DNA from: Squalus acanthias
Taxonomy: Eukaryota
Direction of reading: 5' to 3'
NCBI GenBank assembly: GCA_030390025.1
Contig: CM059432.1
Location: 80,044,001 to 80,108,000, forward strand
Length of the DNA: 64,000 nt
The translations under genes and the position numbers were made by a program. The notes beneath the pieces are model-generated. The model searched no databases and was not told where the DNA came from. It was given only the letters and a program-made list of their open reading frames with translations. Below, in pieces: positions 661 through 64,000 of the stretch. Position 1 is the stretch's first letter. Each line of letters starts with the position of its first letter.

Positions 661-691
661 CTTTGTTTTTCTGTTTCTGATTTTATCTCCT
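661..691 (-). CDS. ARFGEF1: ARFGEF1 coding exon 2 (31-nt micro-exon)
   Basis: Minus strand reads poly-T..CAACAG|AGGAGATAAAATCAGAAACAGAAAAACAAAG|GTAAGC. Joined to exon 1 in phase it gives ...VAL-E-EIKSETEKQ(S/R), matching recalled BIG1 EEIKAETEKQS. Confidence 0.95.
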
Positions 692-3971: not shown

Positions 3972-5055
3972 ATAATGTCTGAAACAACTTCTTTATGTAT
4001 AAACCACTGGTAGACGGTGTAATTCAAGAAAGAAATGGGAATTGTATCCTGCAGTGACAGCTGGCTTTCAAAGTATACATTTACACTATACTTTGATAAA
4101 ACACAAGAAAGAAACAAAGATTATTAAATTCTTTAAAATGGAAAGCTCAAGCATTAACAATACTGATTAAGCAAATAAAGAAAGCTACACAACTGGAAAC
4201 AGTAAACAATGAAAACTTATACTATCTTGATAGCAAACATTCCAGTGGCCCAATTGTCTCATAACCTAATCTACTGAAAAGGAGTTTGTTGATTATTCAT
4301 GAGTTCGGCACATCCATGGTAACAATGTTATTGAATACCAATGCAGAAAAATTTCACCTGCAATAACTTTGTTTAATAATTAAAACTAATTGCTAAGTAG
4401 TTTTAATTAGATAGACATTTCCCTATTTCCGTTGCACAAGCTTTGAATCCTAGCCCTCCCTTAACATATCTGGATGACAGTCCCTATCTAATAAACATAG
4501 TATAGCAGGACAATGATTAAATACACCCACGTGACTTGTAACTAGTGTTCTTTTACCAAACTCATTAACTAGCCTACTAAAAACTCAATGCTAGCTGCTC
4601 GATGCAATAGTACAAGCATTATCGTTCATGAATTCCATAGTGACAGTGATTTGCATTCAAATATTAGCTTTAACTATTACTTAATAAGCCTCACCAACTA
4701 TGTCATTTAATACTACCAAATGCTATCTTAATCATTTGTCCAATTCACTAAACAGCCAACTGCAACACACATGCATTACTTCAACTTGAACCTGGCGTCA
4801 ACTGCTAGGATTCATAGGTGTTACCACAAAAATCAAGGAGTTCTTTTACATCACATGCAGTAGTTTCCCTGTCACTTCAAACAATAGCAGTTTGAACTTC
4901 ACACATAATCTTACTATTCCACTGACTTGGAAGTTATGACATACAACAGGAAACCAAAAAAATGAAGAAAATATACTGGTACAAAAGCAATTCATAATCT
5001 TAACATGCCCTTCAACTGAATCAGTTATTCACTGTCACAGACAGCACTGTTTCAT

Positions 5056-5160
5056 CAGTTCTGACGAAGGGTCATCGACATGAAACGTTGACTCTGTTTC
5101 TCTCTCCACAGATGCTGTCTGACCTGCTGAGTATTTCCAGCATTTTCTGTTTTTATTTCT
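5056..5160 (+). ncRNA. Penelope-type repeat fragment with minimal hammerhead ribozyme motif
   Basis: AGTT-CTGACGA-AGGGTC ATC GACAT-GAAA-CGTT-GACT: CUGANGA and GAAA core boxes with a hairpin between them (one stem II mismatch). Same family as 11641-11862. Confidence 0.65.
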
Positions 5161-7240
5161 GCTTCATCAGTCACTGTGTAATGAACAGAACATACGTTTT
5201 GTGTCATAAAGGATAACTGATTAGTCCATGCATTTTGAACACTTTCACACCACTTACTTATGAGTGTAACTTTTTTCTTCACACTAAAATCCTTGAGGCT
5301 CGCCCCATTATTCTAGGATGTTGACATCAATCAGATAATGCCAAATGCCTCAAAATTGTTTTTGAGATGTAGATAATCTGGACTGGACTAGCTTGTTATT
5401 AGTTTAGTTACAGCATGTTTTCATGAAGATGCATATTTTTTTCCATGCTGCCAAAACACCACTGATTTGTGTGCAGCATAGATACTGAATCGTGCTTCCA
5501 CTTGGAGAGAATAGCGGACTCCCATTATTTGATAATGCACGAACGAACTGTGGGGCTATTGAATCCCAATATGAAAGCACACATCCCAAAAGTTGCAGCC
5601 AATTTCCCAGATACACTCCTGAATTATTTCAAACAATAGAATAAAGGGATTCAAAGCCTATAGGTCAATACGTTCTACATCCTCTCATTCTTTTCAGGAT
5701 TATGATGTGGCAGGAGTAGAAACCGGAATTTGCCTGCAATAAGCGCATGTTTTCTATGGCTTGAGAAAGCAAAGTTCCAAATATCCAGGCACAACAGCTC
5801 TTCAGCTCAGCACTCTTCTTTCCCCCATTTTTTACCAGTGCCGAAGATAATGGTCAGAAGAGGGGGATGCTTCAGTGGTCAACTTAATCTACTGCTTCTA
5901 CAAAATGGTTTGGTAAAAATATTTTAAGGCCAAATCTGATTCCTTCTGCAAAACAAAAATCATGAGTAGAGTCTTGATTGATGCAGGCTGCAGGAATATT
6001 TATTGGGTTAGGCTAATGACTGTGCTGAAGGCAAGAACATCACTTTTACTTTAAAAGCTGAAATGCTTTCATCACTTTTTCAATTCCAATGCGGAATGGC
6101 ATCAGAGTAGCTTCACAATCCGGAGCAGTTTGTGACTGAAAGTAGAAGAGTTTGTATGAATGCTGGATGAGATGGAGAGCTTTTTCCCAGCCTAGAATCA
6201 ATAAAGAATGATGCCCAGGCAATGTAGTGTTTCTATATCTTTCCTGAGAACAATCCTTGATCTATAGCTATATATTTTGGGGGTAAACAAGAACTCATAA
6301 TCCCTTTGTGATTACGAACTGTACTTCAATATGATCAGCAAGGCTGATTGGTCATGCATCACCAATGAACAACTTTTTATATATTTATTTTATAGCAACC
6401 CCCATAAAATAACTGAGCCCTTCACATGGCAAAGAGGCAGACACTGAGCAGGAAAAGGAGGATGACCAAAGAAATGGTTAAAGAGCAGGAGTTTAAGGTT
6501 CTCAAAGTCAGGGAGGGGGTTAGCAAGGCAAATTAATTTGGAAGAGAATTTCAAGAGCAAGGCCATAACGACTGAATGATCAGCCTCCAATGATAGAGCG
6601 AAGGGAACAGAGAGAAATCAGTAATCCAGAATCAGAGTAGAGGATATGGGTTGGGTTTTATGGTTGGAGCAAATCCATGAAGACAAGGATCCTGAAATCA
6701 ATTTGATGGGGCTAAGAGCCAGTGGAGCTTGGCAAAGACTGCCGTGAAGTGCATGCAGAACTTTTGTGTGGGAGAAGTCAAATACCACCAAGTTCTGAAT
6801 TAGCTACACAACCATCATGGGTATCAGTAACTGAGAAGGATCTATGACATGAAGAAAATTGGGTGCTATCGTCAACCAGAGCTGAAGATTACCTAAAGGA
6901 GTAGATTCACCAAAAGTAAAATGATACTGGAAGCACAAAAGTGCCTGTATTAGCCAAGACTATGGTATTGTAACATTTGAAACCAATATTCATCTTAAAT
7001 CAAAAAAGTCTGTAAATTGTTTAAAAAGGAACTTAGGAAATGAACCACTTTCCAAGTGGTGACATCTAGAAAAACTCCAAATGGACAGTGACATTTTTTT
7101 GTTTTCCTGCATACATGGGCCAGATTGGGACTTTCTGCTGACACCATAAGGAAAGGAATTAAGAATGTGATTCAAGTAAGGTCGTACATAGTTGGCTACC
7201 TGATTAAAATGGCCACTACATGGTGTGAATTTTTCCCTTC

Positions 7241-10555: not shown

Positions 10556-10753
10556 GACATAGAATCACAGAATAGTACAGGAGGCCATTCGGCCCGTCGA
10601 GTCTGCACCGGCTCTTTTGAAGAGCAATCCAGTTAGTCCCACTCACCCTGCTCTTTCCTCATATCCCTGCAATTTTTTCTCCTTTAAGTATTTATCCAAT
10701 TCTCTTTTGAAGGTTACTGTTGAATCTGCATCCACCACCCTATCATCCATGAA

Positions 10754-10882
10754 CTTCACCTGACGAAGGAGCAGCGTTCCAAAAGCTTGTGATTTCAAAT
10801 AAACCTGTTGGACTATAACCTGGTGTTGTGCGACTTCTCACATTTATCCACCCCAGTCCAACACCGGCATCGCCACATCATG
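10754..10882 (+). ncRNA. Penelope-type fragment with degenerate hammerhead motif
   Basis: CAC-CTGACGA-AGGAGC AGC GTTCC-AAAA-GCTT-GTG; the GAAA box is mutated to AAAA. Homologous to 19807-19905. Confidence 0.55.
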
Positions 10883-11640
10883 GCTCTATTTATGAAGCCC
10901 AGGATCCCGTACGCTTTTTTAACCGCTTTTTCAACCTGCCCTGCCACCTTCAATGATTTGTGCACATATACCCCCAGGTCTCTCTGTTCATGCACCCCCT
11001 TTAGAATTGTTCCCTTTAGTTTATATTTCCACTCCTCGTTCTTCCTACCAAAATGTATCACTTCACACTTTTCTGCGTTAAATTTCATCTGCCAAGTGTC
11101 CGTCCATTTCACCAGCCTGTCTATGCCCTCTTGAAGTCTATCACTATCCACTATACTTCCAAGTTTTGTGTCATCTGCAAATTTTGAAATTGTGCCCTGT
11201 ACACCCAAGTCTAAGTCATTAATATATATCAAGAAAAGCAGTGGTCCTAGTACCGACCCCTGGGGAACACCACTGTATACCTTACTCCAGTCCGAAAAAC
11301 AACCGTTCACCACTACTCTGTTTCCTGTCACTTAGCCAATTTCGTATCCATGCTGCCACTGTCCCTTTTATTCCATGGGCTTCAACTTTGCTGGCAAGCC
11401 TATTATGTGGCACTTTGTCGAACGCCTTTTGGGAGTCCATGTACACCACGTCAACCGCATTGCCCTCATCAACCCTCTCTGTTACCTCATCAAAAAACTC
11501 AATCAAGTTAGTTAAACACGATTTGCCTTTAACAAATCCGTGCTAGCTTTCCCTAATTAATCCATACTTGTCCAAGTGACTGTTAATTTTGTCCCCGATT
11601 ATTGTTTCTAAAAGCTTCCCCACTACCGAGGTTAAACTGA

Positions 11641-11862
11641 TAGCAAAATACTGCGGATGCTGGAAATCTGAAATAACAACAGAAAACGCTGGAAAAACTC
11701 AGCAGGCCAGGCAGCATCCGTGGAGAGAGAAAGAGAGTTAACGTTTCAGGTCGATGACCTTTCGTCAGAACGAAAGGTCATCGACCTGAAACGTTAACTC
11801 TCTTTCTCTCTCCACGGATGCTGCCTGGCCTGCTGAGTTTTTCCAGCGTTTTCTGTTGTTAT
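11641..11862. mobile_element. Penelope-type insert forming a perfect 94-bp inverted repeat, with 17-bp flanking direct repeat and hammerhead motif
   Basis: Arms 11672-11765 and 11770-11863 are exact reverse complements with loop CAGA. TACCGAGGTTAAACTGA occurs at 11624-11640 and 11863-11879. The minus strand reads GTT-CTGACGA-AAGGTC ATC GACCT-GAAA-CGTT-AAC. Confidence 0.85.
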
Positions 11863-13595
11863 TACCGAGGTTAAACTGACTGGACTGTAGTTGCTGGGTT
11901 TATCCTTACACCCTTTTTTGAACAAGGTTGTAAACATTTGCAATTCTCCAGTCCTCTGGCACCACCCCCGTATCCAAGGAGGATCGGAAGGAGATTATGG
12001 CCAGTACCTCTGCAATTTCCACCTTTACTTCCCTCAGCATCCTAGGATGCATCCCATCCGGTCCTGGTGACATATCTACTTTAAGTACAGCCAGCCTTTC
12101 TAGTACCTCATCATCAATTTTTATCCCATCCAGTATCCACTACCTCCTCTTTCACTATAACTTTGGCAGCATCTTCTTCCTTGGTAAAGACAGATGCAAA
12201 GTACTCATTTAGTACCTCAGCCATGCTCTCTGCGTAGGTCTCCATTTTGGTCCCTAATCGGCCCAGCCCTCCTCTTACTACCCATTTACTATTTATATGC
12301 CTATAGAAGTCTTTTGGATTCCCTTTTATGTTAGCTGCCAATCTATTCTCATACTCTCTCTTTGCCCCTCTTATTTCCTTTTTCACTTCCCCTCTGAACT
12401 TTTTATATTCAGCCTGGTTCTCACTTGTATTCTCAACCTGACATGTCATACACCCCCTTTTTCTGCTTCAGCTTACTCTCTATCTCTTTCATCATCCAGG
12501 GAGCTCTGACTTTGGTTGCCCTACCTTTCCCCCTCGCGGGAATGTACCTCGACTGTACCCGAATGATTACCTCCTCTTTAAAGGCAGCCCATTGTTCGAT
12601 TACAGTTTTACCTGCCAATCTTTGATTCCAATTTACCCGGGCCAGATCCATTCTCAGCCCACTGAAATTGGCTTATCTCCAATTAAATATTTTTACTCTA
12701 GATTGCTCCTTGGCTAGTCTAAACCTTATGATACTGTGATCACTGTTCCCCTACTGACACTTGCTCTACTTGACCCACCTCATTCCCCAGAACCAGATCC
12801 AGCAATGCCTCCTTCCTCGTTGGGCCGGAAACGTACTGATCAAGTTCTCCTGAACACACTTCAGAAATTCTTCCCTCTCTCTGCCCTTTACATTACTATC
12901 CCAGTCTATATTAGGATAGTTGAAGTCCCCCATTATCACGACCCTATAGTTCTTGCACCTCTCTAATTTCTCTGCAAATTTGCTCCTCTATATCCTTCCC
13001 ACTAGTAGGTGGCCAATAGAATACACCTAGTAGTGTAATGGCACCTCTGTTGTTTCTTAACTCTAACCAAATAGATTCTCTCCTCGACTCCTCCAGGACA
13101 TCCTCTCTCCAGCACTGTAATATTCTCCTTTATCAATACTGCCACCCCACCTCCTTTCTTTCCTTCCCTATCTTTCCTGAATACCTTATATCCAGGAATA
13201 TTTAGTACCCAATCCTGCCCTTTTTTGAGCCAGGTCTCAGTTATCGCCACAACATCATATTCCCATTTGTCTATTTGAGCCTGCAGCTCACCAACCTTAT
13301 TTACCACACTTTGTGCATTCACACACATGCACTGTAAACCTATCTTAGACCTTCTTGTATTCTCTCTTAATCTGACTCCACTTAATACCGTACTATTTCG
13401 TACTCTAGTGCTATCTGTCTCTTCCAATCCTTTGTGCACCTTGTTTCTCCTTTCTAATGCTACATCCTGGTGCCCATCCCCGTGCCAAATTAGTTTAAAC
13501 CCTCCCCAACAGCACTAGCAAACCCCCGCGAGGACATTGGTCCCGGCTCTGTTGAGGTGCAACCTGTCCGGCCTGTACAGGTCCCATCTCCCCCT

Positions 13596-19806: not shown

Positions 19807-19905
19807 TTCACACTTCACCTGAGGAAGGAGCAAATCGATAGCTCCGAAAGCTTGTGATTTCAAATAAAACTGTTGGACTATAACCTGGTGTTGTGCGACC
19901 TCTCA
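19807..19905 (+). ncRNA. Penelope-type fragment with intact minimal hammerhead motif and 10-bp flanking direct repeat
   Basis: CAC-CTGAGGA-AGGAGC AAATCGATA GCTCC-GAAA-GCTT-GTG; ACTTTGCACC at 19797-19806 and 19906-19915. Confidence 0.7.
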
Positions 19906-35166: not shown

Positions 35167-36613
35167 AGACAGAGATAAGAGAGGGGAAGACAGAAAGAAA
35201 GAATGTGAAAGGTATACAATGGAAACAGAAAGACAGGGATAAAGAATTAGACAATGGAAAACAGGAAAAATGCAATGTTCTTTTCTGCCCATAAACAACT
35301 CATGACAAAAACACTATTTTATTATACTGTAGGTCAAATCCAACTGATAGCTCAATGTCCTGTTTTCAATTGGAAATGTTAACTAGTTTAAGCATGCAGT
35401 GGACTCTTGGCAAGGGCAAAACACTAGTTTGCCCCATCAGAAATTTGATCTCACTGCAGATCAAACTTCATTAAAATTAATAGATTGTGACAGTATAAGT
35501 TTTTTTTAAAAACAAGGACTTATCTTTTATCAATCTTAAGTGGATTTGGGTATATTAAGAAATAAGATCATTTTTGATTTATCAGGTGATAAAATAAGAG
35601 CAAAAAGTCAATTCAAATTCTATCCCAGAATACATTTACTAAACCCGTCATAATCTCTTCCCTCTTTCTGCTGACTCCATTGATTTTTCTTAAGAAATCA
35701 ATTTCTGTGGCCCTTACCTCAAGCACAATTAAAAAACTTAGCAGAAAGTCAACTTTTACAAAATGTATTATGGATTATATGTACACTTCAAATTCACTGC
35801 TTGCTAGGACTAATATGTAAACCACACTGTATTTTGACTATTAGATGGCTGACAGCATAGGTCATGAAGGGCATGTTAAATTTAGCCATTCACTCAAGTG
35901 TCCATAAGAAGCTCAACAGTCAAAAAGGCATATTGTAAAAAGCATTAAAGGACACAAACCAAAATTCAATACAAAATACAAATGTTGATGTTATGAATAT
36001 TCTATTAGTATATTAAATATCTTATGTCTGCACATACTTCCTGTCAATCTTCCCCATCACAAACATGTCCACACTTATAATGGAAACTGCCTATGTAAAC
36101 TTGCAAAGTTGTAATTGCATGCTCCTGTTGGTTAAGGTGTTCCAATGCCAATGATGGGAGAGTTTAATCACAGCACGACAAGTTTACATAGAAACTTTCC
36201 ATTGTAAATGTGGACATACGAATTTATAATGTAAATATCAAAATAATGACAATGTAAGACTTTAAAATCAAGTCCATCCCTGGTCCATTTATCTCCCACC
36301 CTCTAACCCTGTTTCACCTGAACACTACATTTGATCTCAACTCATGCAACACCTCAATCAACAGGTATTTGCAAAAAAAATTCTAAACACAGAAATTTAG
36401 ATCATCAATCTTGGACCAAATTCTTCTTCAAATTGACTCATGGGCATCTGAATGGAATCTTAACTCTCACAACAGCAACAATAGTGCATATAATACTTTT
36501 TTCTAACTGTAACATAGCTGTAACTGAAGAGCTCCGTTGGTATGATTACTATGCTCCTTTGCACAACTGGAAAAAAGGGCCTGAAACTCAACTTTACCAA
36601 TGAGTAAGTAACT

Positions 36614-39600
36614 CTCCCCCTCAGATTCCCTCTCTCTCACCCTTTCCTATTCCCTCTCTCTCTCTCTCCACCCCCCCACCGCAGATTCCCCCTCGCTCAC
36701 TCCGATTCCCCCTCTGATCCCCCCTCTCTCACCCCCACAGATTCCCCCCCCCGCAGATTCCCCCTCTCTCGCACGCCGTCAGATTCTCCCTCTCACCCAG
36801 ATTCCCTCTGATCCCCGCTCTCTCTCTCGCCCCCTCAGATTCCCCCCCTCTCTCGCCCCTTCAGATTCCCCCTCTCTCGCCCCCTCAGATTCCCCCCTCT
36901 CTCGCCCCCTCAGATTCCCCCCCTCTCTCGCCCCCTCAGATTCCCCCCCTCTCTCGCCCCCCTCTCTCCCTCAGATTCCCCCTCCCCCTCCCCCTCTCTC
37001 ACCCTCACATTCCCCCCTCCCCCCCCTCTCACCCTCACATTCCCCCCTCCCCCCCTCTCACCCTCACATTCCCCCCTCCCCCCCTCACATTCCCCCTCCC
37101 CCCCTCTCACCCTCACATTCCCCCTCTCCTCCCCCCCCAGATTCCCCCCTCCCCCCCCCAGATTCCCCCCTCTCTCCGCCCCCCCAGATTCCCCCCTCTC
37201 TCCCCCCCCCCAGATTCCCCCCTCTCCCCCCCCCCCCAGATTCCCCCCTCTCCCCCCCCCCCCAGATTCCCCCCTCTCTCCCCCCCCAGATTCCCCCCTC
37301 TCTCCCCCCCCCCAGATTCCCCCCTCTCTCTCCCCCCCCAGATTCCCCCCTCTCCCCCCCCCCAGATTCCCCCCTCTCCCCCCCAGATTCCCCCCTCTCC
37401 CCCCCCCCCAGATTCCCCCCTCTCCCCCCCCCAGATTCCCCCCTCTCCCCCCCCCAGATTCCCCCCTCTCCCCCCCCCCAGATTCCCCCCTCTCCCCCCC
37501 CTCCAGATTCCCCCCTCTGCCCCCCCAGATTCCCCCCTCTCCAGATTCCCCCCTCTCTCCCCCCCCAGATTCCCCCCTCTCCCCCCCAGATTTCCCCCTC
37601 TCCCCCCCCCAGATTTCCCCCTCTCCCCCCCCCAGATTTCCCCCTCTCCCCCCCCAGATTTCCCCCTCTCTCCCCCCCAGATTCCCCCCTCTCTCCCCCC
37701 CAGATTCCCCCCTCTGTTGCCCCCCCCAAGATTCCCCCCCCTGTCGCCCCCCCAGATTCCCCCCTCTGCACCCCCCCAGTTTACCACCACTCCCCCCCCA
37801 GATTCCCCCCTCTCCCCCCCCAGTTTCCCACCTCTCCCCCCCCCCCAAATTCCCACCTCTCCCCCCCCCAAATTCCCACCTCTCCCCCCCCAGATTTCCC
37901 CCCCCAGATTTCCCCCCACTCTCCCCCCCCCAGATTTCCCCCCTCTCCCCCCCCCAGATTTCCCCCCTCCCCCCCCCCAGATTTCCCCCTTTCTCTCCCC
38001 CCCCAGATTTCCCCCCTCTCTCCCCCCCCCAGATTTCCCCCCTCTCCCCCCGCCCAGATTCCCCCCGCCCAGATTCCCCCCTCCCTCCCCCCCGCCCAGA
38101 TTCCCCCCTCCCTCCCCCCCGCCCAGATTCCCCCCTCCCTCCCCCCCGCCCAGATTCCCCCCTCCCTCCCCCCCGCCCAGATTCCCCCCCTCCCTCCCCC
38201 CCGCCCAGATTCCCCCCCTCTCCCCCCCCCGCCCAGATTCCCCCCCTCTCCCCCCCCGCCCAGATTCCCCCTCTCCCCCCCGCCCAGATTCCCCCCTCTC
38301 CCCCCCCCCAGATTCCCCCGCCCAGATTCCCCCTCCCCCGATTCCCCCCTCCCCCGATTCCCCCCTCTCCCCCTCCCCCGATTTCCCCCCCCCCCCCAGA
38401 TCCCCCCTCCCCCCCCCCAGATTCCCCCCTCCCCCCCCCCCAGATTCCCCCCTCCCCCCCCCCCCAGATTCCCCCCTCCCCCCCCCCCCAGATTCCCCCC
38501 TCTCCCACCCAGATTCCCCCTCTCCCCCCCAGATTTCCCCCTCCCCCCCCCCCCAGATTTCCCACTCTCCCCCCCCCAGATTTCCCCCTCTCCCCCCCCC
38601 AGATTTCCCCCTCTGTCGCCCCCCCCAAAATTCCCCCCCGTCGCCCACCCAGTTTACCACCCTCCCCCCCCCCCAGATTCCCCCCTCTCCCCCCCCAGTT
38701 TCCCACCTCTCCCCCCCCAAATTCCCACCTCTCCCCCCCCCAAATTCCCACCTCTCCCCCCCCAGATTTCCCCCCTCTCCCCCCCCCAGATTTCCCCCCT
38801 CTCCCCCCCCAGATTTCCCCCCTCTCTCCCCCCCAGATTTCCCCCCTCTCTCCCCCCCCAGATTCCCCCCCTCTCCCCCCCAGATTCCCCCCCTCTCTCC
38901 CCCCCCAGATTCCCCCCCTCTCCCCCTCCAGATTTCCCCCCTCTCTCCCCCCCCAGATTTCCCCCCTCTCTCCCCCCCAGATTTCCCCCCTCCCTCCCCC
39001 CCGCCCAGATTCCCCCCTCCCTCCCCCCCGCCCAGATTCCCCCCTCCCTCCCCCCCGCCCAGATTCCCCCCTCCCTCCCCCCCGCCCAGATTCCCCCCCT
39101 CTCCCCCCCGCCCAGATTCCCCCCCTCTCCCCCCCCCCCGCCCAGATTCCCCCCCTCTCCCCCCCGCCCAGATTCCCCCCCTCTCCCCCCCCGCCCAGAT
39201 CCCCCCCCTCTCCCCGCCCCAAGATCCCCCCTCTCACCCACCAATTCCCCCCCTCCCCCATCCCCCCCGTCCCGTTCCCCCCTCCACACCTCCCCCCCCC
39301 AGAATCCCCCCTCCCCGATTCCTCCCCCCTCCCTCTCTCCCCCCCCAAGATTCCCCCTCTCTCCTCTCTCCCCCCACCCCCAATTCCCCCCTCTCTCCCC
39401 CCCCGATTCCCCCTCTTTCCCCCCCCATTCCCCCTCTTTTCCCCCCCCCCCGATTCCCCCACCCCCATTCCCCCACCCCAGATCCCCCCTCTCCTTCCCC
39501 CCCCAATTCCCCACCCCAGATTCCCCACCCCTCTTCCCCCCCCCAGATTCCCCCCTGTTCCCCCCACCCCAGCTTCCCCCGTTCCCCCCCCCCCATATTC

Positions 39601-42600
39601 CCCCGGTCCCCCCCCCCCCAGATTCCCCCCTCTCTTCATCCCCCCCCCAGATCCCTCTCTCTTCCCCCGCCCCCGATCCCCCACCCCCCAGATTCCCCCC
39701 TCTCTCCCCCCCCCCAGATCCCCCCCCCCCAGATTCCCCCCCCCCAGATTCCCCCCTCTCTTCCCCCCCCAGATTCCCCCTCTCTTCCCCCCCCAGATTC
39801 CCCCCTCTCTTCCCCCCCCCAGATTCCCCCCTCTCTTCCCCCCCCCAGATTCCCCCCTCTCTTCCCCCCCACCCCAGATTACCCCCTCTCTTCCCCCCCC
39901 AGATTCCCCCCTCTCTTCCCCCCCCCAGATTCCCCCCTCTCTTCCCCCCCCAGATTCCCCCCTCTCTTCCCCCCCAGATTCCCCCCTCTCTTCCCCCCCC
40001 AGATTCCCCCCTCTCTTCCCCCCCCAGATTCCCCCCTCTCTTCCCCCCCAGATTCCCCCCTCTCTTCCCCCCCCCAGATTCCCCCTCTCCCCCCCCAGAT
40101 TGCCCCCTCTCTCCCCCCCCAGATTCCCCCCCCCCAGATTCCCCCTCTCCCCCCCCCCCAGATTCCCCCTCTCCCCTCCCCCAGATTCCCCCTCTCCCCC
40201 CCCCAGATTCCCCCTCTCCCCTCCCCCAGATTCCCCCTCTCCCCCCCCCAGATTCCCCCCTCTCCCCCCAGATTCCCCCTCTCCCCCCCCCCAGATTCCC
40301 CCCTCTCCCCCCCCCAGATTCCCCCCTCTCTCCCTCCCAGATTCCCAGATTCCCCCCCAGATTCCTCCCTCTCCCCCCCTCAGATTCCCCTCTCCCCCCC
40401 CTCAGATTCCCCTCTCCCCCCCCTCAGATTCCCCTCTTCCCCCCCTCAGATTCCCCTCTTCCTCCCCCTCAGATTCCCCTCTTCCCCCCCCTCAGATTCC
40501 CCCCTCCCTCCCCCCTCAGATTCCCCCCTCAGATTCCCCTCTCTCCCTCCCCCCTCAGATTCCCCTCTCTCCCTCCCCCCTCAGATTCCCCTCTCTCCCT
40601 CCCCCCTCAGATTCCCCTCTCTCCCTCCCCCCCAGATTCCCCTCGCTCCCTCCCCCCTCAGATTCCCCTCGCTCCCTCCCCCCTCAGATTCCCCTCGCTC
40701 CCTCCCCCCTCAGATTCCCCTCGCTCCCTCCCCCCTCAGATTCCCCTCGCTCCCTCCCCCCTCAGATTCCCCTCGCTCCCTCCCCCCTCAGATTCCCCTC
40801 TCTCCCCCCTCAGATTACCCTCTCTCCCCCCTCAGATTCCCCTCTCTCCCCCCCCCCTCAGATTCCCCTCTCTCCCCCCTTCAGATTCCCCTCTCCCCCC
40901 CCTCAGATTCCCCTTTCTTCCCCCCCCGATTCCCCCACCCCAGATTCCCCCCCCCAGATTCCCCCCTCTCTTCCCCCCCAGATTCCCCCCTCTCTTCCCC
41001 CCCCCCCAGATTCCCCCCTCTCTTCCCCCCCCCCCAGATTCCCCCCTCTCTTCCCCCCCCCCCAGATTCCCCCCTCTCTTCCCCCCCCCCAGATTCCCCC
41101 CTCTCTTCCCCCCCCCCCAGATTCCCCCCTCTTCCCCCCCCCCAGATTCCCCCCTCTCTCCCCCCCCCCCAGATTCCCCCCTCTCTTCCCCCCCCAGATT
41201 CCCCCCTCTCTTCCCCCCCCCCAGATTCCCCCCCTCTCTTCCCCCCCCCCAGATTCCCCCCTCTCTTCCCCCCCCCCAGATTCCCCCCTCTCTTCCCCCC
41301 CAGATTCCCCCCTCTCTTCCCCCCCCAGATTCCCCCCTCTCTTCCCCCCCCCAGATTCCCCCCTCTCTTCCCCCCCCCAGATTCCCCCCTCTCTTCCCCC
41401 CCCAGATTCCCCCTCTCTTCCCCCCCCCAGATTCCCCCCTCTCTTCCCCCCCCCCAGATTCCCCCCTCTCTTCCCCCCCCAGATTCCCCCCTCTCTTCCC
41501 CCCCCAGATTCCCCCCTCTCTTCCCCCCCCCAGATTCCCCCCTCTCTTCCCCCCCCCCCAGATTCCCCCCTCTCTTCCCCCCCCGCCAGATTCCCCCCTC
41601 TTCCCCCCCCCAGATTCCCCCTCTCTTCCCCCCCCCAGATTCCCCCCTCTCTTCCCCCCCCCAGATTCCCCCCTCTCTTCCCCCCCCCCCAGATTCCCCC
41701 CTCTCTTCCCCCCCCCAGATTCCCCCCTCTCTTCCCCCCCCCAGATTCCCCCCTCTCTTCCCCCCTCTCTCCCCCCCAGATTCCCCCCTCTCTTTCCCCC
41801 CCCCAGATTCCCCCTCTCTTCCCCCCCCAGATTCCCCCCTCTCTTCCCCCCCCAGATTCCCCCCTCTCTTCCCCCCAGATTCCCCCCTCTCTTCCCCCCC
41901 CAGATTCCCCCCTCTCTTCCCCCCCCAGATTCCCCCCTCTCTCCCTCAGATTCCCCTCTCCCCCCCCCTCAGATTCCCCTCTGCCCCCCCTCAGATTCCC
42001 CTCTCCCCCCCCCTCAGATTCCCCTCTCCCCCCCCCTCAGATTCCCCTTCCCCCCCCCCTCAGATTCCCCTCTCCCCCCCCTCAGATTCCCCTCTCCCCC
42101 CCCTCAGATTCCCCTCTTCCCCCCCTCAGATTCCCCCCTCTCTTCCCCCCCCCCAGATTCCCCCCTCTCTTCCCCCCCCCCAGATTCCCCCCTCTTCCCC
42201 CCCCCCAGATTCCCCCCTCTCTTCCCCCCCCAGTCCCCCCTCTTCCCCCCCCCAGATTCCCCCCTCTCTTCCCCCCCCCAGATTCCCCCCTCTCTTCCCC
42301 CCCCCCAGATTCCCCCCTCTCTTCCCCCCCCCCCCAGATTCCCCCCTCTCTTCCCCCCCCCAGATTCCCCCCTCTCTTCCCCCCCCCAGATTCCCCCCTC
42401 TCTTCCCCCCCCCAGATTCCCCCCTCTCTTCCCCCCCCCAGATTCCCCCCTCTCTTCCCCCCCCAGATTCCCCCCTCTCTTCCCCCCCCCAGATTCCCCC
42501 CTCTCTTCCCCCCAGATTCCCCCCTCTCTTCCCCCCCCAGATTCCCCTCTCCCCCCCCCTCAGATTCCCCTCTCCCCCCCCTCAGATTCCCCTCTCCCCC

Positions 42601-45600
42601 CCTCAGATTCCCCTCTCCCCCCCCCCTCAGATTCCCCTCTCCCCCCCTCAGATTCCCCTCTTCCCCCCCTCAGATTCCCCTCTTCCCCCCCTCAGATTCC
42701 CCCCTCTCTCCCCCCCCCAGATTCCCCCTCTCTTCCCCCCCCAGATTCCCCCCTCTCTTCCCCCCCCCAGATTCCCCCCTCTCTTCCCCCCCCCCAGATT
42801 CCCCCCTCTCTTCCCCCCCCCCAGATTCCCCCCTCTCTTCCCCCCCCCCAGATTCCCCCCTCTCTTCCCCCCCCCAGATTCCCCCCTCTCTTCCCCCCCT
42901 CTCTCCCCCCCAGATTCCCCCCCTCTTTTCCCCCCCCCCAGATTCCCCCCTCTCTTCCCCCCCCAGATTCCCCCCTCTCTTCCCCCCCAGATTCCCCCCT
43001 CTCTCCCTCAGATTCCCCTCTCCCCCCCCCTCAGATTCCCCTCTCCCCCCCCTCAGATTCCCCTCCCCCCCCTCAGATTCCCCTCTCCCCCCCCTCAGAT
43101 TCCCCTCTCCCCCCCCTCAGATTCCCTCTCCCCCCCCCTCAGATTCCCCTCTCCCCCCCCCCTCAGATTCCCCTCTCCCCCCCCCCTCAGATTCCCTCTC
43201 CCCCCCCTCAGATTCCCCTCTCCCCCCCCCCTCAGATTCCCCTCTCCCCCCCCCTCAGATTCCCCTCTTCCCCCCCTCAGATTCCCCTCTTCCCCCCCTC
43301 AGATTCCCCTCCCCCGCCTCAGATTCCCCTCTCCCTCCACCCTCAGATTCCCCTCTCCCTCCCCCCTCAGATTCCCCTCTCCCTCTCCCCTCAGATTCCC
43401 CCCTCCCTCCCCCCTCAGATTCCCCCCTCCCTCCCCCCTCAGATTCCCCTCTCTCCCTCCCCCCTCAGATTCCCCTCTCTCCCTCCCCCCCCAGATTCCC
43501 CTCGCTCCCTCCCCCCTCAGATTCCCCTCGCTCCCTCCCCCCTCAGATTCCCCTCGCTCCCTCCCCCCTCAGATTCCCCTCGCTCCCTCCCCCCTCAGAT
43601 TCCCCTCGCTCCCTCCCCCCTCAGATTCCCCTCGCTCCCTCCCCCCTCAGATTCCCCTCTCCCCCCCCTCAGATTCCCCTCTCTCCCCCCCCTCAGATTC
43701 CCCTCTCCCCCCCCTCAGATTCCCCTCTCCCCCCCCCTCAGATTCCCCTCTCTTCCCCCCCTCAGATTCCCCTCTCCCCCCCCCCTCAGATTCCCCCCTC
43801 TCTCCCCCCCTTTGATTCCCCCCTCTCCCCCCCCTCAGATTCCCCCCTCTCTCCCCCATCAGATTCCCCCCTCTCCCCCCCTCAGATTCCCCCCTCTCTC
43901 CCCCCCTCAGATTCCCCCCTCTCTCCCCCCTCAGATTCCCCCCTCTCGCCGCCCCTCAGATTCCCCCCTCTCGCCCCCCCTCAGATTCCCCCCTCTCTCC
44001 CCCCCCTCAGATTCCCCCCTCTCTCCCCCCCTTAGATTCCCCCCTCAGATTCCCCCCCTTACATTCCCCCCTCTCTCCCCCCCTTAGATTCCCCCCTCTC
44101 TCCCCCCCTTAGATTCCCCCCTCTCTCCCCCCCTCAGATTCCCCCCTCTCTCCCCCCCTCTCTCCCCCCCTCAGATTCCCCCCTCTCCCCCCCAGATTCC
44201 CCCCTCTCCCCCCCAGATTCCCCCCTCTCCCCCCCAGATCCCCCCCTCTCTCCCCCCCCTCAGATTCCCCCCCCTCAGATTCCCCCCTCTCTCCCCCCCA
44301 CAGATTCCCCCCTCTCTCCCCCCCTCAGATTCCCCCCTCTCAGATTCCCCCCTCTCCCTCCCCCCTCAGATTCCCCTCTCCCCCCCCTCAGATTCCCCTC
44401 TCCCCCCCCTCAGATTCCCCTCTCTCCCCCCCTCAGATTCCCCTCTCTCCCCCCCCTCAGATTCCCCTCTCTCCCCCCCCTCAGATTCCCCTCTCTCCCC
44501 CCCTCAGATTCCCCTTTCTCCCCCCCTCAGATTCCCCTCTCTCCCCCCCTCAGATTCCCCTCTCTCCCCCCCTCAGATTTCCCCCCCCCTCAGATTCCCC
44601 CCCTCTCCCCCCCTCAGATTCCCCCCTCTCCCCCCCCCTCAGATTCCCCCCTCTCCCCCCCCTCAGATTCCCCCCTCTCTCCCCCCCTCAGATTCCCCCC
44701 TCTCTCCCCCCCTCAGATTCCCCCTCTCTCCCCCCCTCAGATTCCCCCCTCTCTCCCCCCCTCAGATTCCCCCCTCCTCAGATTCCCCTCTTCCCCCCCC
44801 CCTCAGATTCCCCTCTTCCCCCCCCCCTCAGATTCCCCTCTTCCCCCCCCTCAGATTCCCCTCTTCCCCCCCCTCAGATTCCCCTCTTCCCCCCCCCCTT
44901 AGATTCCCCCCTCTCCCCCCCAGATCCCCCCCTATCCCCCCTCTCCCCCCCAGATCCCCCCCTCTCCCCCCCTCTCCCCCCCAGATCCCCCCCTCTCCCC
45001 CCCAGATCCCCCCCTCAGATTCCCCCCCCCCCCTCAGAATTCCCCCCCCCCCTCAGATTCCCCTCTCCCCCCCTCAGATTCCCCCCCACAGATTCCCCCC
45101 TCTCTCCCCCCCACAGATTCCCCCCCTCTCCCCCCCCTCAGATTCCCCCCTCTCCCCCCTCAGATTCCCCCCTCTCTTCCCCCCCCTCAGATTCCCCCCT
45201 CTCTTCCCCCCCCTCAGATTCCCCCCTCTCTTCCCCCCCCCTCAGATTCCCCCCTCTCTTCCCCCCCCTCAGATTCCCCCTCTCTTCCCCCCCCTCAGAT
45301 TCCCCCCTCTCTTCCCCCCCCCTCAGATTCCCCCCTCTCTTCCCCCCCCTCAGATTCCCCCCTCTCTTCCCCCCCCTCAGATTCCCCCCTCAGATTCCCC
45401 CCTCTCTTCCCCCCCTCAGATTCCCCCCTCTCTTCCCCCCCCCCTCAGATTCCCCCCTCTCTTCCCCCCCCCTCAGATTCCCCCCTCTCTCCCCCCCACA
45501 GATTCCCCCCTCTCTCCCCCCCTCAGATTCCCCCCTCTCCCCCCCCTCTCCCCCCCTCAGATTCCCCCCTCTCTTCCCCCCCCTCAGATTCCCCCCTCTC

Positions 45601-46180
45601 TGATTCCCCCCTCTCTTCCCCCCTCTCTTCCCCCCCCCTCAGATTCCCCCCTCTTCCCCCCCCAGATTCCCCCCTCTCTTCCCCCCCCCTCAGATTCCCC
45701 CCTCTCTTCCCCCCCCCTCAGATTCCCCCCTCTCTTCCCCCCCCCTCAGATTCCCCCCTCTCTTCCCCCCCCCTCAGATTCCCCCCTCTCTTCCCCCCCC
45801 TCAGATTCCCCCCTCTCTTCCCCCCCCCTCAGATTCCCCCCTCTCTTCCCTCCCCCCTCTCTCCCCCCCTCAGATTCCCCCCTCTCTCCCCCCCTCAGAT
45901 TCCCCCCTCTCTCCCCCCCTCAGATTCCCCCCTCTCTCCCCCCCCTCACCCCCCCCTCTCTCCCCCCCTCAGATTCCCCCCTCAGATTCCCCCCTCTCCC
46001 CCCTCAGATTCCCCCCTCAGATTCCCCCCCTCTCCCCCAGATTCTCTCCCCATATCTCTCTCTCTACCCCCCTCAGACTCACCCCCTCACTCACCCCCTC
46101 AGACTCACCCCCTCACTCACTCCCTCCGATTCCCTCTCTTTCACCATCTCAGATTTCTCTCTCTCTCTCTCTCTCTCTCC
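36614..46180 (+). repeat. ~9.5-kb C-rich minisatellite, unit ~20-27 bp, core CAGATTC-C(n)-TCTC(TT)-C(n)
   Basis: Hundreds of CAGATTC cores separated by C-runs; the + strand is overwhelmingly pyrimidine. It grades into (CT)n at both ends. Confidence 0.97.
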
Positions 46181-47289
46181 ACCCGCCTCCCACCCGATCC
46201 ACGTGCATGCACAGAAGGCCATGCAGCATATTCATGCAAATAATCACTCCAAAAAATAAGAGACTTTTCTAGTCAACTCGTAAGTTACACCAGTCAACTC
46301 TCATTTCACATCAATTTTAAATGTACAGGTAGTTAAAGAAAAAAAACCTTTACATGCCTCCATATTTTAATCCACACTGAAAGATTGTGCATCTCAGGAG
46401 GATATTGTCAAGAATATTTCATGTATAATACTCTGGAGTATATGTCTATCACTATGTGGCACAAACTTACCAATACATAATAACCAGCAAAATATACCGC
46501 TTCCCACACATAACTCAAAATATATCCAACTCCAACGCAGGATTAAATAATAGCACATTATAAACAAGGCTGTAACTAATAAAAACAGAAAGAAACGATT
46601 TGTTGCAACAAATTCACTAAGCAACTATAATTTCAGATTTATAATAAATATTGTAAAAGTAATAACTTGGGATACAATAATCTTCCACTGGTAACTTTCA
46701 TTATACTGATTGACCTAGAATAGTTAGTGTTATTTCTCAACTAACAATATTACGCTATGGTATTTGTTGACAGTCATTTCATCACATAGAAGGACTTCCT
46801 TTTCAAACAAAAATCAGAAAGCACCACAGCACATGTTGTCTTAACTATCTAGATTTCAGACAACGTGGACTATGACAGACTACAGAAACAACAATAATAC
46901 TAACAGAAAGCTTGGTGCTTTCCTATTTTGGATGGGGAAAGGGAGGAAAATGAGCACCCAGCTCACCAAAGCAACATTAATAATTTTATAGCAAACATAC
47001 AGTTTTCTAAATGCACCTTCGACTGTTACTAAAATGCATTATTGGTCATTTTATAACTAAGACACCTATAGCTACTGAACATTTATTTACACAAGTGGAT
47101 AGATGTAGTCACTGTGAAGTAAAAGGACATTCTAACAAATGTATTGAGATTTCAAAACTGCAACACAAAGTAATTAAAGCTCAGGCTCTATACACTGCAC
47201 ATAGAATTTGGTGACACTCCAAAGAGTTCAGGTGACAAGAAACTGAATTATTTCTTGTCTGAAACTAGAGATGCACTACTACTACTACC

Positions 47290-56567: not shown

Positions 56568-57290
<723 letters not shown>

Positions 57291-61751: not shown

Positions 61752-62918
61752 ATGAGGGCTCTACTTGCAGTCCCCCTCGCACTCGAGTATCATAGAGAGA
61801 TGGAGCGGAGGCAGCGAAGAAGAGGACAAGATGCTCGCAGAGAGAGGAGGAGGAGGGGCAGGAGGGCTCTCAGCAGGAGGCCTTACCCACCTAGGGTCTT
61901 CCGAGAGCACTTCTCTTACCTCCACTTAAGTGAAGAGCAGTGTATTAGGAGGCTCTGCTTCACCAAGGAGGTGGTCACAGAACTCGGACACCTCCTGCAA
62001 CAAGACCTGCAGCCTCCGAGCAGGGCGACGATAGCTTTCTCAGTGGCCGTCAAGGTCACCGTGGTCCTCAACTTTTTTCGCCAGCGGATCCTTCTAGTCT
62101 GTAACAGGAGACATAGCTAACATCTCCCGGGTTGCCGTCCATCGCTGCATCCGGGAGGTCACAGAGGCTCTCTACTCCGTGAGAAGGGACTTCATTGTCT
62201 TCTCTCTGAACAGGATGAGCGCACATGTGACTTTGTCAGGATAGCGGGCTTTCCCATGGTGCAGGGCGGCATCGACTGCACACATGTGGCTTTGCGGGCA
62301 TCATGCAACAATGCTGAGATGTTCCGTAACTGCAAAGGCTACCACTCACTTAATGTGCAGCTGTTGTGAGACCACGCCCAGCACATCCTGACGGTTAATG
62401 TCCACTATCCTGGCAGCAGTCATGATGCCTTCATCCTGCGCCAATTCGGTGTGCCAGCAAAATTCCAGCCATCACGTCAAACCCGAGGGTGGCTGCTCGG
62501 TGACAAGGGCTATCCGCTCTGCACCTGGCTGATGACTCCCCACCACTCATGGCCAGCAATCATAATGACAGCCATGTTGCAATGAGGAGCATCATCGAGC
62601 AGACCATCGGGCTGCTGAAGCAATGGTTCCGCTGCCTTGACCACTCGGGAGGAGCCCTCCATTAGTTGCCAGAGCGTGTGTCCCATTTTGTGCTGGTCTG
62701 TTGCATGCTCCACAACGTGGCCATCATGAAGGCACAGCCCTTGCCACCAGGGGTTGCGGGACCACCTCAGGAGGAGGAGGAGGATGAAGAGGAGGAGGAG
62801 GAAGAGGAGAGGAAGAGGAAGAGGAAGAGGAGGAGGAGGAAAGGATGAGGCAGGCAGCAAATTCCCATTCCAGACAGGCTGTCCATGAGTGTCTCATCAG
62901 ACTCCGATTTGACTGAAT
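61752..62918 (+). pseudogene. Harbinger (HARBI1-like) DDE transposase, frameshifted/with stops
   Basis: LSEEQCIRRLCFTKE, then AGFPMVQGGIDCTHV (~62271), KGYHSLNVQ, YPGSSHDAFIL, WLLGDKGYP, SIIEQTIGLLKQWFRCL and VCCMLHNVAI, then an acidic tail. Frameshift at ~62075 and internal stops. Confidence 0.9.
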
Positions 62919-62969
62919 GAAACCCCAGATCCCCGTTGCTCACCACTTCCCAATCATACCATCCCTCTG

Positions 62970-63995
62970 TCACGGAACATCACAGCGTCCTCCTGAGCAC
63001 AAAGCTGAAATGAGAGCCACCACAAAACACACATTCCAAACAAAATTAATAAATTTATCAAAATCCAATCTCAATGACAATACCAACGATTCACCCTTGT
63101 GCATTCCCTTGGTGTTGGTCTTTCGTGTGATTTTTCCTAGTCTAGTGGTCCTATGCAGTGCTCCCCCAGTGGCTGCAGCATGGCTGGTGGAAGGCTGCTG
63201 ACTTTCAGTGGTGGAGACTTCAGATGGCCTTGCAGGACAACCTTGAACAGCTCTGTACCCATAAGGCCCAGGCGTAGACTGCACCACCTTGGCATGGGCA
63301 GCAGCAGTCTGGGCTGGATGGCTGATAGGCAGCAGTAACGGCAATGGCGGAGTGGCAGTGGTGGGAGAAGGAATGCTGTCATCCTGAGAGAGGACAGCAG
63401 GTTCTTGCTCCAGAGACTCACTGCCACTTCCCTGGGGTGGCGCCTCAGCATTCCTAGCAATCTGTTGGAGCACAGATTGCTGGACTACTGTGACACCCTG
63501 CAAGCCCCTTTCGACACTCATAAACCCAATGATGATGGCAGCAGTCTGAGCTTGCGTGGCAGCAAGCTGAGCCTGCAGGAGAGCAGTCTGCACTTCCACT
63601 ACAGCACTGAGATGTTGGGTCGCTTCCGCCTGTGCTGCAATGGAAGCTGAAAGATCGCCCATCACACGCAGCATCATCCGTGGGTCCACAAGGTCTCTCC
63701 TGGAGTGGTCCATCATTTCCATCCTGGAAATCATGGGCTCCAAGCTCTGCACAAAGTCCTGTGCAATGTTGGAGCCGGACTCCTCCATGCTCCTTGACAT
63801 TGCCAAGAGGCTCTCTGGCAGGCTTGCCATTGCACCTAGCATTTTAGTGTGCATGGCCATCACCCTCCTTCTGAAGGCTGCCCCATCGAAGTCAACATCT
63901 GAGTCCTGTGGAGCAGAATTCATGTGCGAATTCGCCCTCCAGGGAGCTGACACCCGAGCTACCCTTTCCCCCTGACCTAGCTGCAGTCTACTCAT
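62970..63995 (-). pseudogene. C-terminal part of the Harbinger second (Myb/SANT-type partner) ORF
   Basis: 341-aa open frame with an Ala/Gln coiled-coil-like segment and a Pro/Ser/Thr-rich tail, convergent with the transposase as in two-gene Harbingers. The Myb domain itself is not visible and is presumed to lie beyond the window. Confidence 0.6.
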
Positions 63996-64000
63996 GCCCG

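What the first reader, a model, noticed from the sequence alone, without database searches (positions are those of the whole stretch)
11624..11879. Hammerhead-ribozyme motif locked in a perfect 94-bp palindrome with a 17-bp target duplication
Seen: exact inverted arms (11672-11765 / 11770-11863, 4-nt loop) flanked by TACCGAGGTTAAACTGA direct repeats inside a CR1. The minus strand, which is the ARFGEF1 pre-mRNA sense, has a complete CUGACGA-stemII-GAAA-CGUU core. The mirror arm lost its CTG exactly at the fold-back point. Established: Penelope-like elements carry minimal hammerheads with palindromic stem III and often insert as inverted partial repeats. Inference: a very young insert (zero arm mismatches) whose inversion point lies within the ribozyme. 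It would give a long dsRNA hairpin in the host intron (possible ADAR/Dicer substrate) that masks the ribozyme.
Basis: partly seen in the sequence, partly recalled or inferred. Interest (0 to 1): 0.7.

Follow-up and report, generated by a model that had tools for sequence, protein, structure and literature searches.

The report
Penelope retroelement fold-back stub with hammerhead
This 222-base hairpin is two head-to-head stubs of a Penelope-like jumping gene, one carrying that family's small self-cutting RNA motif, sitting in an intron; it is a clean example of an insertion pattern already described for these elements.

Summary
In detail: exact 94-bp arms, a 4-nt loop, a 17-bp target duplication in a CR1, and a complete minimal hammerhead on the minus strand, which is the ARFGEF1 pre-mRNA sense (intron 1). 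Inverted truncated copy, tail and target duplication together are the published signature of Penelope-like element (PLE) insertions. The predicted cut site lies 26 nt after the ATG-equivalent position, as in the Anolis PLE. The fold point is at the hammerhead's 5' edge, 32 nt from the cut site, so self-cleavage did not make it. 'Very young' is not established, masking of the ribozyme is computed only, and ADAR/Dicer action is untested. No link to an RT/GIY-YIG protein was shown. One lead remains. All 4 hammerhead stubs found in the window (two families) start just upstream of the ribozyme, and the short arm ends at the family's tail-less 3' end. This suggests a preferred RNA 5' boundary and possibly two cDNAs primed on opposite target strands. 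Three other inversion joints in public contigs lie elsewhere, so the point is not fixed. Verdict: new member of a known kind, low interest.

The parts
11624..11640 (+). Left target-site duplication (17 bp, CR1 RT coding sequence)
11641..11671 (-). 31-nt one-sided PLE tail (RNA positions +95 to +125, counting the A of CUG-A as +1); base 11641 may be untemplated
   Evidence: loose-end rows at 11642 and 11671
11672..11771 (-). Long (sense) arm: start of PLE ORF-like frame, RNA -6 to +94; open for 43 codons with the tail
11737..11771 (-). Minimal type I hammerhead; predicted cut between 11740 and 11739 (+26)
   Evidence: consensus
11766..11769 (.). 4-nt loop at the inversion junction, closed by a 2-bp AC/GT microhomology
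11770..11863 (+). Short inverted arm, RNA +1 to +94, no CUG, no tail; last base shared with the target duplication
11863..11879 (+). Right target-site duplication
10816..13514 (-). Host CR1-type LINE, decayed (RVT_1 and Exo_endo_phos fragments); limits approximate; the CR1 label is recalled
5058..5160 (+). Second, solo copy of the same family: no tail, no inverted arm, 9-bp target duplication 5051-5059 / 5163-5171; 10 differences in 102 nt
56612..56735 (-). ARFGEF1 (BIG1) coding exon 1
661..691 (-). Candidate ARFGEF1 exon 2 (31 nt); identity rests on the phase and EE junction plus recall

Best explanation
A dead, minimal insertion of an endonuclease-bearing Penelope-like retroelement (Penelope/Poseidon-like layout), with the inverted arm produced during integration. 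Shown from sequence: the anatomy. Inferred steps: (1) The element's endonuclease nicked the plus strand after 11640. (2) Reverse transcription started internally at about +124 of the element RNA and ran to just upstream of hammerhead helix I (-6), where family copies tend to stop. (3) The inverted arm was then made, most likely (about 0.5) by the cDNA 3' end folding back on a 2-bp microhomology and copying itself up to the tail boundary, or (about 0.3) by a second cDNA primed on the other target strand (see rivals). (4) Joining to a second nick 17 nt away gave the duplication. The hammerhead is a passenger. It needs a tandem partner to fold, and in ARFGEF1 pre-mRNA it is buried in a 94-bp duplex whose antisense arm is transcribed first, so it most likely does not cut the host transcript.
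For: Anatomy matches published PLE insertions: adjacent inverted 5'-truncated copy and a 30-40-bp tail at one end (PMC8557442 passages); 31-bp tail, inverted pLTR, 8-10-bp duplications and palindromes at inverted junctions read as self-priming (PMC3846280 passages and Discussion). Cut site +26 from the ATG-equivalent, as in Anolis PAc, whose RT starts internally at 111-118 nt (PMC11167929 parts 1-2; register). The motif fits the min-HHR consensus. The same sequence occurs solo with its own duplication. The family is very abundant in 3 of 4 runs laid, and hundreds of contigs leave the reference at 11642, 11671 and 11771 into poorly agreeing flanks (agreement 0.38-0.46, against 0.75-0.80 for CR1 paralogs continuing at 11640). 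The arms share variants that are in the minority in the family (e.g. G at 11733), which fits copying of one arm from the other or from one source. Hairpin MFE -188.5 kcal/mol.
Against: No RT or GIY-YIG sequence was tied to this family: the 43-aa frame found no long protein and only 6 unnamed singleton ORFs. The snap-back stem is unstable (+1.0 kcal/mol). Neither nick site shows PAc's ATT preference, and 17 bp is longer than the 8-10-bp duplications in PMC3846280 and at the two other stubs here that have one (9 and 10 bp). G10.1-C11.1 is replaced by A-U. None of the 24 listed contig pieces (of about 268,600) spans the filled junctions or the loop, so raw-read proof of this exact hairpin is missing.
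Confidence: 0.87

Rival explanations
1. Same element, different integration route: two cDNAs, one primed on each target strand by a dimeric PLE protein, one from the +124 start and one from the +95 start. Both run to the RNA's 5' boundary and are joined head to head by microhomology.
For: The short arm ends at +94/+95, which is a 3' end class of the family: 371 contigs of run X6 have loose ends there and the solo copy ends at +97. PAc nicks and extends both strands, has two start sites that bound the tail, and is predicted to be a dimer. One X3 contig joins the tail directly to the inverted body (11671 to 11772, table 5c), as twin priming would; single contig, side length not shown.
Against: It needs two RNAs from one source to give identical arms. 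A 4-nt loop with 2-bp microhomology is also what self-priming gives. Endonuclease trimming at the tail boundary (suggested in PMC8557442) would also explain the end.
Confidence: 0.3
2. A non-autonomous element that transposes as a whole palindrome (MITE- or fold-back-like DNA unit, or a hairpin RNA).
For: Perfect inverted repeats and a target duplication.
Against: Ends are not symmetric (tail on one side only). The same sequence inserts solo. Other inversion joints in public contigs have different centres (3 of 15 listed joints).
Confidence: 0.05
3. Assembly or sequencing artefact (fold-back read).
For: No listed contig piece spans the hairpin; no assembly of the genome was held.
Against: The mirror stops at an element boundary and does not include flank. 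The duplication is exact, the empty site restores the CR1 frame, and the layout is a documented biological one.
Confidence: 0.03
4. The hairpin has been kept because it acts on the host: an edited or diced dsRNA in ARFGEF1 intron 1, or a guard against ribozyme cutting.
For: 94-bp perfect duplex in pre-mRNA sense.
Against: No sign of conservation; perfect arms are expected from the insertion itself. The solo min-HHR is reported inactive. Rfam miRNA hits are far below gathering score. No RNA run was laid.
Confidence: 0.05

Closest known systems
Canonical EN+ PLE insertions with inverted pLTR and tail (Arkhipova et al. 2013, PMC3846280, passages and Discussion read; Craig et al. 2021, PMC8557442, passages read)
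   Same: Head-to-head inverted truncated copy, 31-nt one-sided tail, palindrome at the junction, target duplication.
   Different: Here the whole insert is 222 bp with no RT/EN sequence; duplication 17 bp rather than 8-10 bp.
PAc, Poseidon element of Anolis carolinensis (Frangieh et al. 2024, PMC11167929; parts 1-2 of 4 and two figure-only supplements seen)
   Same: Hammerhead overlapping the ORF start, cut site at +26, ends about 95-125 nt into the ORF separated by a tail.
   Different: No evident sequence likeness to the PAc stem-loop text in its supplement (by eye); ACG instead of ATG in this copy; no ATT at the nick sites.
Metazoan min-HHRs (Cervera and de la Pena 2014, PMC4209133; parts 1-2 of 4 and supplement parts 1-2 of 3 read)
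   Same: CUGANGAH, helix II, GAAA, palindromic C-G, UH, short helix I; mostly solo; pairs on opposite strands 100-700 bp apart already noted.
   Different: A-U instead of G-C at 10.1-11.1; no cartilaginous fish in the alignment rows I read.
Non-LTR retrozymes (Li, Clavereau and Pollet 2026 preprint, 10.64898/2026.07.22.740005; parts 1-3 of 5 read; supplements closed)
   Same: Short non-coding PLE-derived unit with a type I hammerhead.
   Different: Retrozymes are head-to-tail tandems with at least two complete motifs; this is head-to-head with one.

Membership tests
EN+ Penelope-like elements | Single ORF with telomerase-like RT and GIY-YIG endonuclease | tested here: inconclusive
   The stub is too short to hold it; the 43-aa frame gave no Pfam hit and no long homolog; no genome held
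EN+ Penelope-like elements | Minimal hammerhead at the pLTR/ORF start, cut site 26 nt after the start-codon position | tested here: met
   compared
EN+ Penelope-like elements | Inverted 5'-truncated copy adjacent at the 5' end | tested here: met
   compared
EN+ Penelope-like elements | 30-40-bp tail at one end only | tested here: met
   31 nt, 11641-11671
EN+ Penelope-like elements | Target-site duplication | tested here: met
   17 bp
EN+ Penelope-like elements | Spliceosomal intron ending at hammerhead helix I (as in D. virilis) | tested here: inconclusive
   The upstream consensus of contigs reads like branch point, pyrimidines and CAG ending at -6; no RNA reads laid; D. virilis intron ends at 491 and C3 is at 496
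Minimal type I hammerhead | Core CUGANGA...GAAA, palindromic 15.2-16.2, UH, helices I and II | tested here: met
   helix II probability 0.98-1.0 and helix I 0.12-0.29 in the single arm
Minimal type I hammerhead | Conserved G10.1-C11.1 pair | tested here: not met
   A-U here, G-U in the solo copy; A-U and G-U also occur in published rows
Minimal type I hammerhead | Self-cleavage as a dimer | not testable with these tools
   needs an in vitro assay
Non-LTR retrozyme | Head-to-tail tandem with two or more complete hammerheads | tested here: not met
   one complete motif, inverted layout
MITE / fold-back DNA transposon | Terminal inverted repeats flush with the duplication; unit moves whole | tested here: not met
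   asymmetric tail, solo copy, differing centres
pre-miRNA | Rfam match at gathering score | tested here: not met
   best 57.6 bits against 90; none at gathering

The most novel reading that the evidence does not exclude
All ends of these stubs are set by RNA signals, not by random truncation. The inner ends mark a preferred template boundary just upstream of hammerhead helix I (a start site or a 3' splice site), and the two outer ends are the two internal RT start sites used on opposite target strands by a dimeric PLE protein. The palindrome would then be a fossil of double target-primed reverse transcription, explaining both the head-to-head repeats and the one-sided tail of PLEs, and the many solo minimal hammerheads in animal genomes.
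Probability: 0.25. Interest if true: 0.6.

Novelty: new member of a known kind. Interest (0 to 1): 0.25.

Why it matters
As a single locus it matters little: a dead PLE stub of a described pattern in a large intron. Its value is as a clean fossil for an open question, namely how PLEs make head-to-head repeats and one-sided tails, which the papers read leave unresolved. A very abundant family with sharp ends would make self-priming against double priming testable by counting junctions in one assembly.

Tried and rejected
No whole genome was held, so no genome-wide census of fold points. Rfam found no hammerhead family. Pattern scans found nothing in viral contigs, metagenomes or prokaryote genomes; the one metagenome hit L001 is a 25-bp chance match. 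Protein searches with the 43-aa frame found no RT-linked protein; the 6 hits look like short translations of dispersed copies but have no DNA context. No RNA holder was listed; this is no evidence on expression. Raw-read run X22 laid only 19 reads and was uninformative. Empty-site joints cannot be told from CR1 paralogs, so polymorphism is untested. The loose-end pile at 11771 is an accumulating edge (all longer copies end there too) and does not by itself show clustering. Hammerhead cleavage as cause of the fold point was rejected (32 nt away). A strict exon scan missed ARFGEF1; a ranked ORF list found it. The PAc supplements gave almost no text, its GenBank file could not be read, the retrozyme preprint's supplements were closed, and Lunse et al. 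2016 on dimer cleavage was not held (only its title was seen, in a reference list). Literature searches for a description of this family and for 'twin priming' with Penelope (listing only) showed none; Repbase/Dfam were not searchable, so it may well be catalogued there. Look-ups of earlier findings by sequence and place were empty.

Full report
Observation. The last base of the right arm is also the first base of the right repeat, so 222 bp lie between the repeats. Removing them and one repeat restores an open CR1 reverse-transcriptase frame across the site (Pfam RVT_1 and endonuclease fragments in the flanks). Public contigs show the matching 239-base skip in runs X2, X3 and X6 (2 of 15 listed joints, of 585). 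These may be CR1 paralogs, so they confirm the duplication but not polymorphism. ARFGEF1 exon 1 is on the minus strand and a likely exon 2 lies at 691-661, which puts the insert in intron 1 with the complete hammerhead in pre-mRNA sense.

What it is. Left of the long arm lie 31 unpaired bases that continue the element. An adjacent inverted truncated copy, a 30-40-bp tail on one side and a target duplication are the described signature of Penelope-like insertions (PMC8557442, passages; PMC3846280, passages and Discussion). The minus-strand motif fits the minimal-hammerhead consensus (PMC4209133 supplement), though Rfam does not detect it. Counting the A of CUG-A as +1, the cut site is +26, the tail ends at +125 and the short arm at +94. 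In the Anolis element the ORF starts at the same place, the cut is 26 nt downstream, and reverse transcription starts internally at 111-118 nt, at two sites that bound the tail (PMC11167929). The corresponding frame is open for all 43 codons here. No protein search linked it to an RT or GIY-YIG domain, so membership rests on anatomy.

The family. A solo copy at 5058-5160 differs at 10 of 102 positions, has its own 9-bp duplication, lacks tail and mirror, and starts between -8 and -4. Two stubs of a second hammerhead family lie at 10753-10882 and 19812-19905; their shared sequence starts at -10, and their flanks bound the starts at about -21 and -15. A sensitive search found no further copy of either family, shorter or longer. 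So 4 of 4 insertions found start within -4 to -21. Under a simple random-truncation model, three further copies falling in one 16-nt window has probability 5e-4 or less; the test is post hoc, n is small, and motif-based finding favours copies that keep the hammerhead. In three runs of two organisms the family is very abundant. Loose ends pile up at 11642 (719, 479, 708 contigs), 11771 (572, 494, 641) and, in X6, at 11671 (371); only 19 of 4100 rows were shown. The 11671 pile lies inside native sequence, so it marks a real tail-less 3' end class, and the short arm ends there. The 11771 and 11642 piles are edges of the reference and cannot show clustering alone. The consensus beyond 11771 is alike in all three runs and reads, in RNA sense, like a branch point, pyrimidines and CAG ending at -6; the D. 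virilis Penelope intron ends 5 nt before the hammerhead core. Against a fixed fold point: three listed joints link left arm to right arm at other places, with inner ends at +44/+14, +23/+34 and -5/+48 (my conversion; one contig each). Copies with the same centre as this one would give no joint and could not be counted.

How it works. Shown: the anatomy. Inferred: a plus-strand nick after 11640 primed cDNA from about +124 to -6; the mirror arm was then added, and the product was joined at a second nick 17 nt away. Self-priming of the cDNA end on a 2-bp microhomology explains identical arms and the tight loop and is the published reading of such junctions, although that stem is unstable (+1.0 kcal/mol). 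Priming of a second cDNA on the other strand explains why the short arm ends at the tail-less boundary and fits the in vitro behaviour of PAc. I weigh these about 0.5 and 0.3. The ribozyme did not set the junction, which is 32 nt from its cut site; in PAc, cleavage is not needed for insertion. In the host transcript the motif is sequestered: helix II probability falls from about 1.0 to 0.0. A lone minimal hammerhead showed no cleavage in the published test, so little is lost.

Age and host effect. Identity over 111 paired bases bounds divergence at 2.7%. If the host is a shark, which I take from recall and from unchecked earlier notes, the epaulette rate of 7e-10 per generation (PMC10587355 passages) turns this into up to about 19 million generations. 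The insert postdates its CR1 host, which differs from nearly all paralog contigs at about ten of the 40 listed sites, but 'very young' is not shown. Editing and small RNAs were not testable.

Artefact. No listed contig piece spans the hairpin (24 shown of about 268,600) and no assembly was held. A fold-back read would mirror flank as well and would not leave an exact duplication, a one-sided tail and an element-boundary end, so I put an artefact at about 3%.

Comparison and verdict. It works like, and by four of five tested structural marks is, a truncated EN+ PLE insertion; the ORF criterion is inconclusive. It is not a retrozyme, MITE or miRNA by the features tested. Earlier notes of this scan describe the same pattern in this and other genomes; they are unchecked and not independent support, but they suggest it is common. 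New member of a known kind; interest 0.25. The lead worth following is a genome-wide count of ends and centres.

Noticed in passing
window 10753-10882 (+) and 19812-19905 (+): Two stubs of a second hammerhead-bearing PLE-like family (86% alike). The first has a tail and a damaged helix II, no clean target duplication, and sits about 760 bp from the palindrome at the end of the same CR1; the second has no tail and a 10-bp duplication.
   Followed up: partly
window 5058-5160 (+): Solo copy of the palindrome's family, antisense to ARFGEF1, with a 4-nt microhomology at its 5' junction.
   Followed up: yes
window 11688, 11667, 11659 (-): The sense arm and tail hold three pyrimidine-tract/AG acceptor-like sites in ARFGEF1 sense, with a donor-like site near 11568; two lie just outside the hairpin. 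Possible cryptic exon; untested.
   Followed up: no
window about 36500-46300: About 10 kb of C-rich low-complexity satellite (GC about 0.7, GC skew about -0.86) inside ARFGEF1 intron 1.
   Followed up: no
window 56612 to 691 (-): ARFGEF1 intron 1 appears to be about 56 kb long and is full of CR1 fragments in both orientations at 70-83% identity, a further source of imperfect dsRNA.
   Followed up: partly
window 61900-64000: A long ORF on the minus strand (62973-63998, 342 aa, no clear Pfam hit) next to plus-strand fragments that look like a Harbinger-type nuclease (recalled resemblance).
   Followed up: no
table 5c, run X3, joint 11671 to 11772: One contig joins the tail directly to the inverted body, the layout that twin priming on one RNA would give; could be a misalignment.
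   Followed up: no
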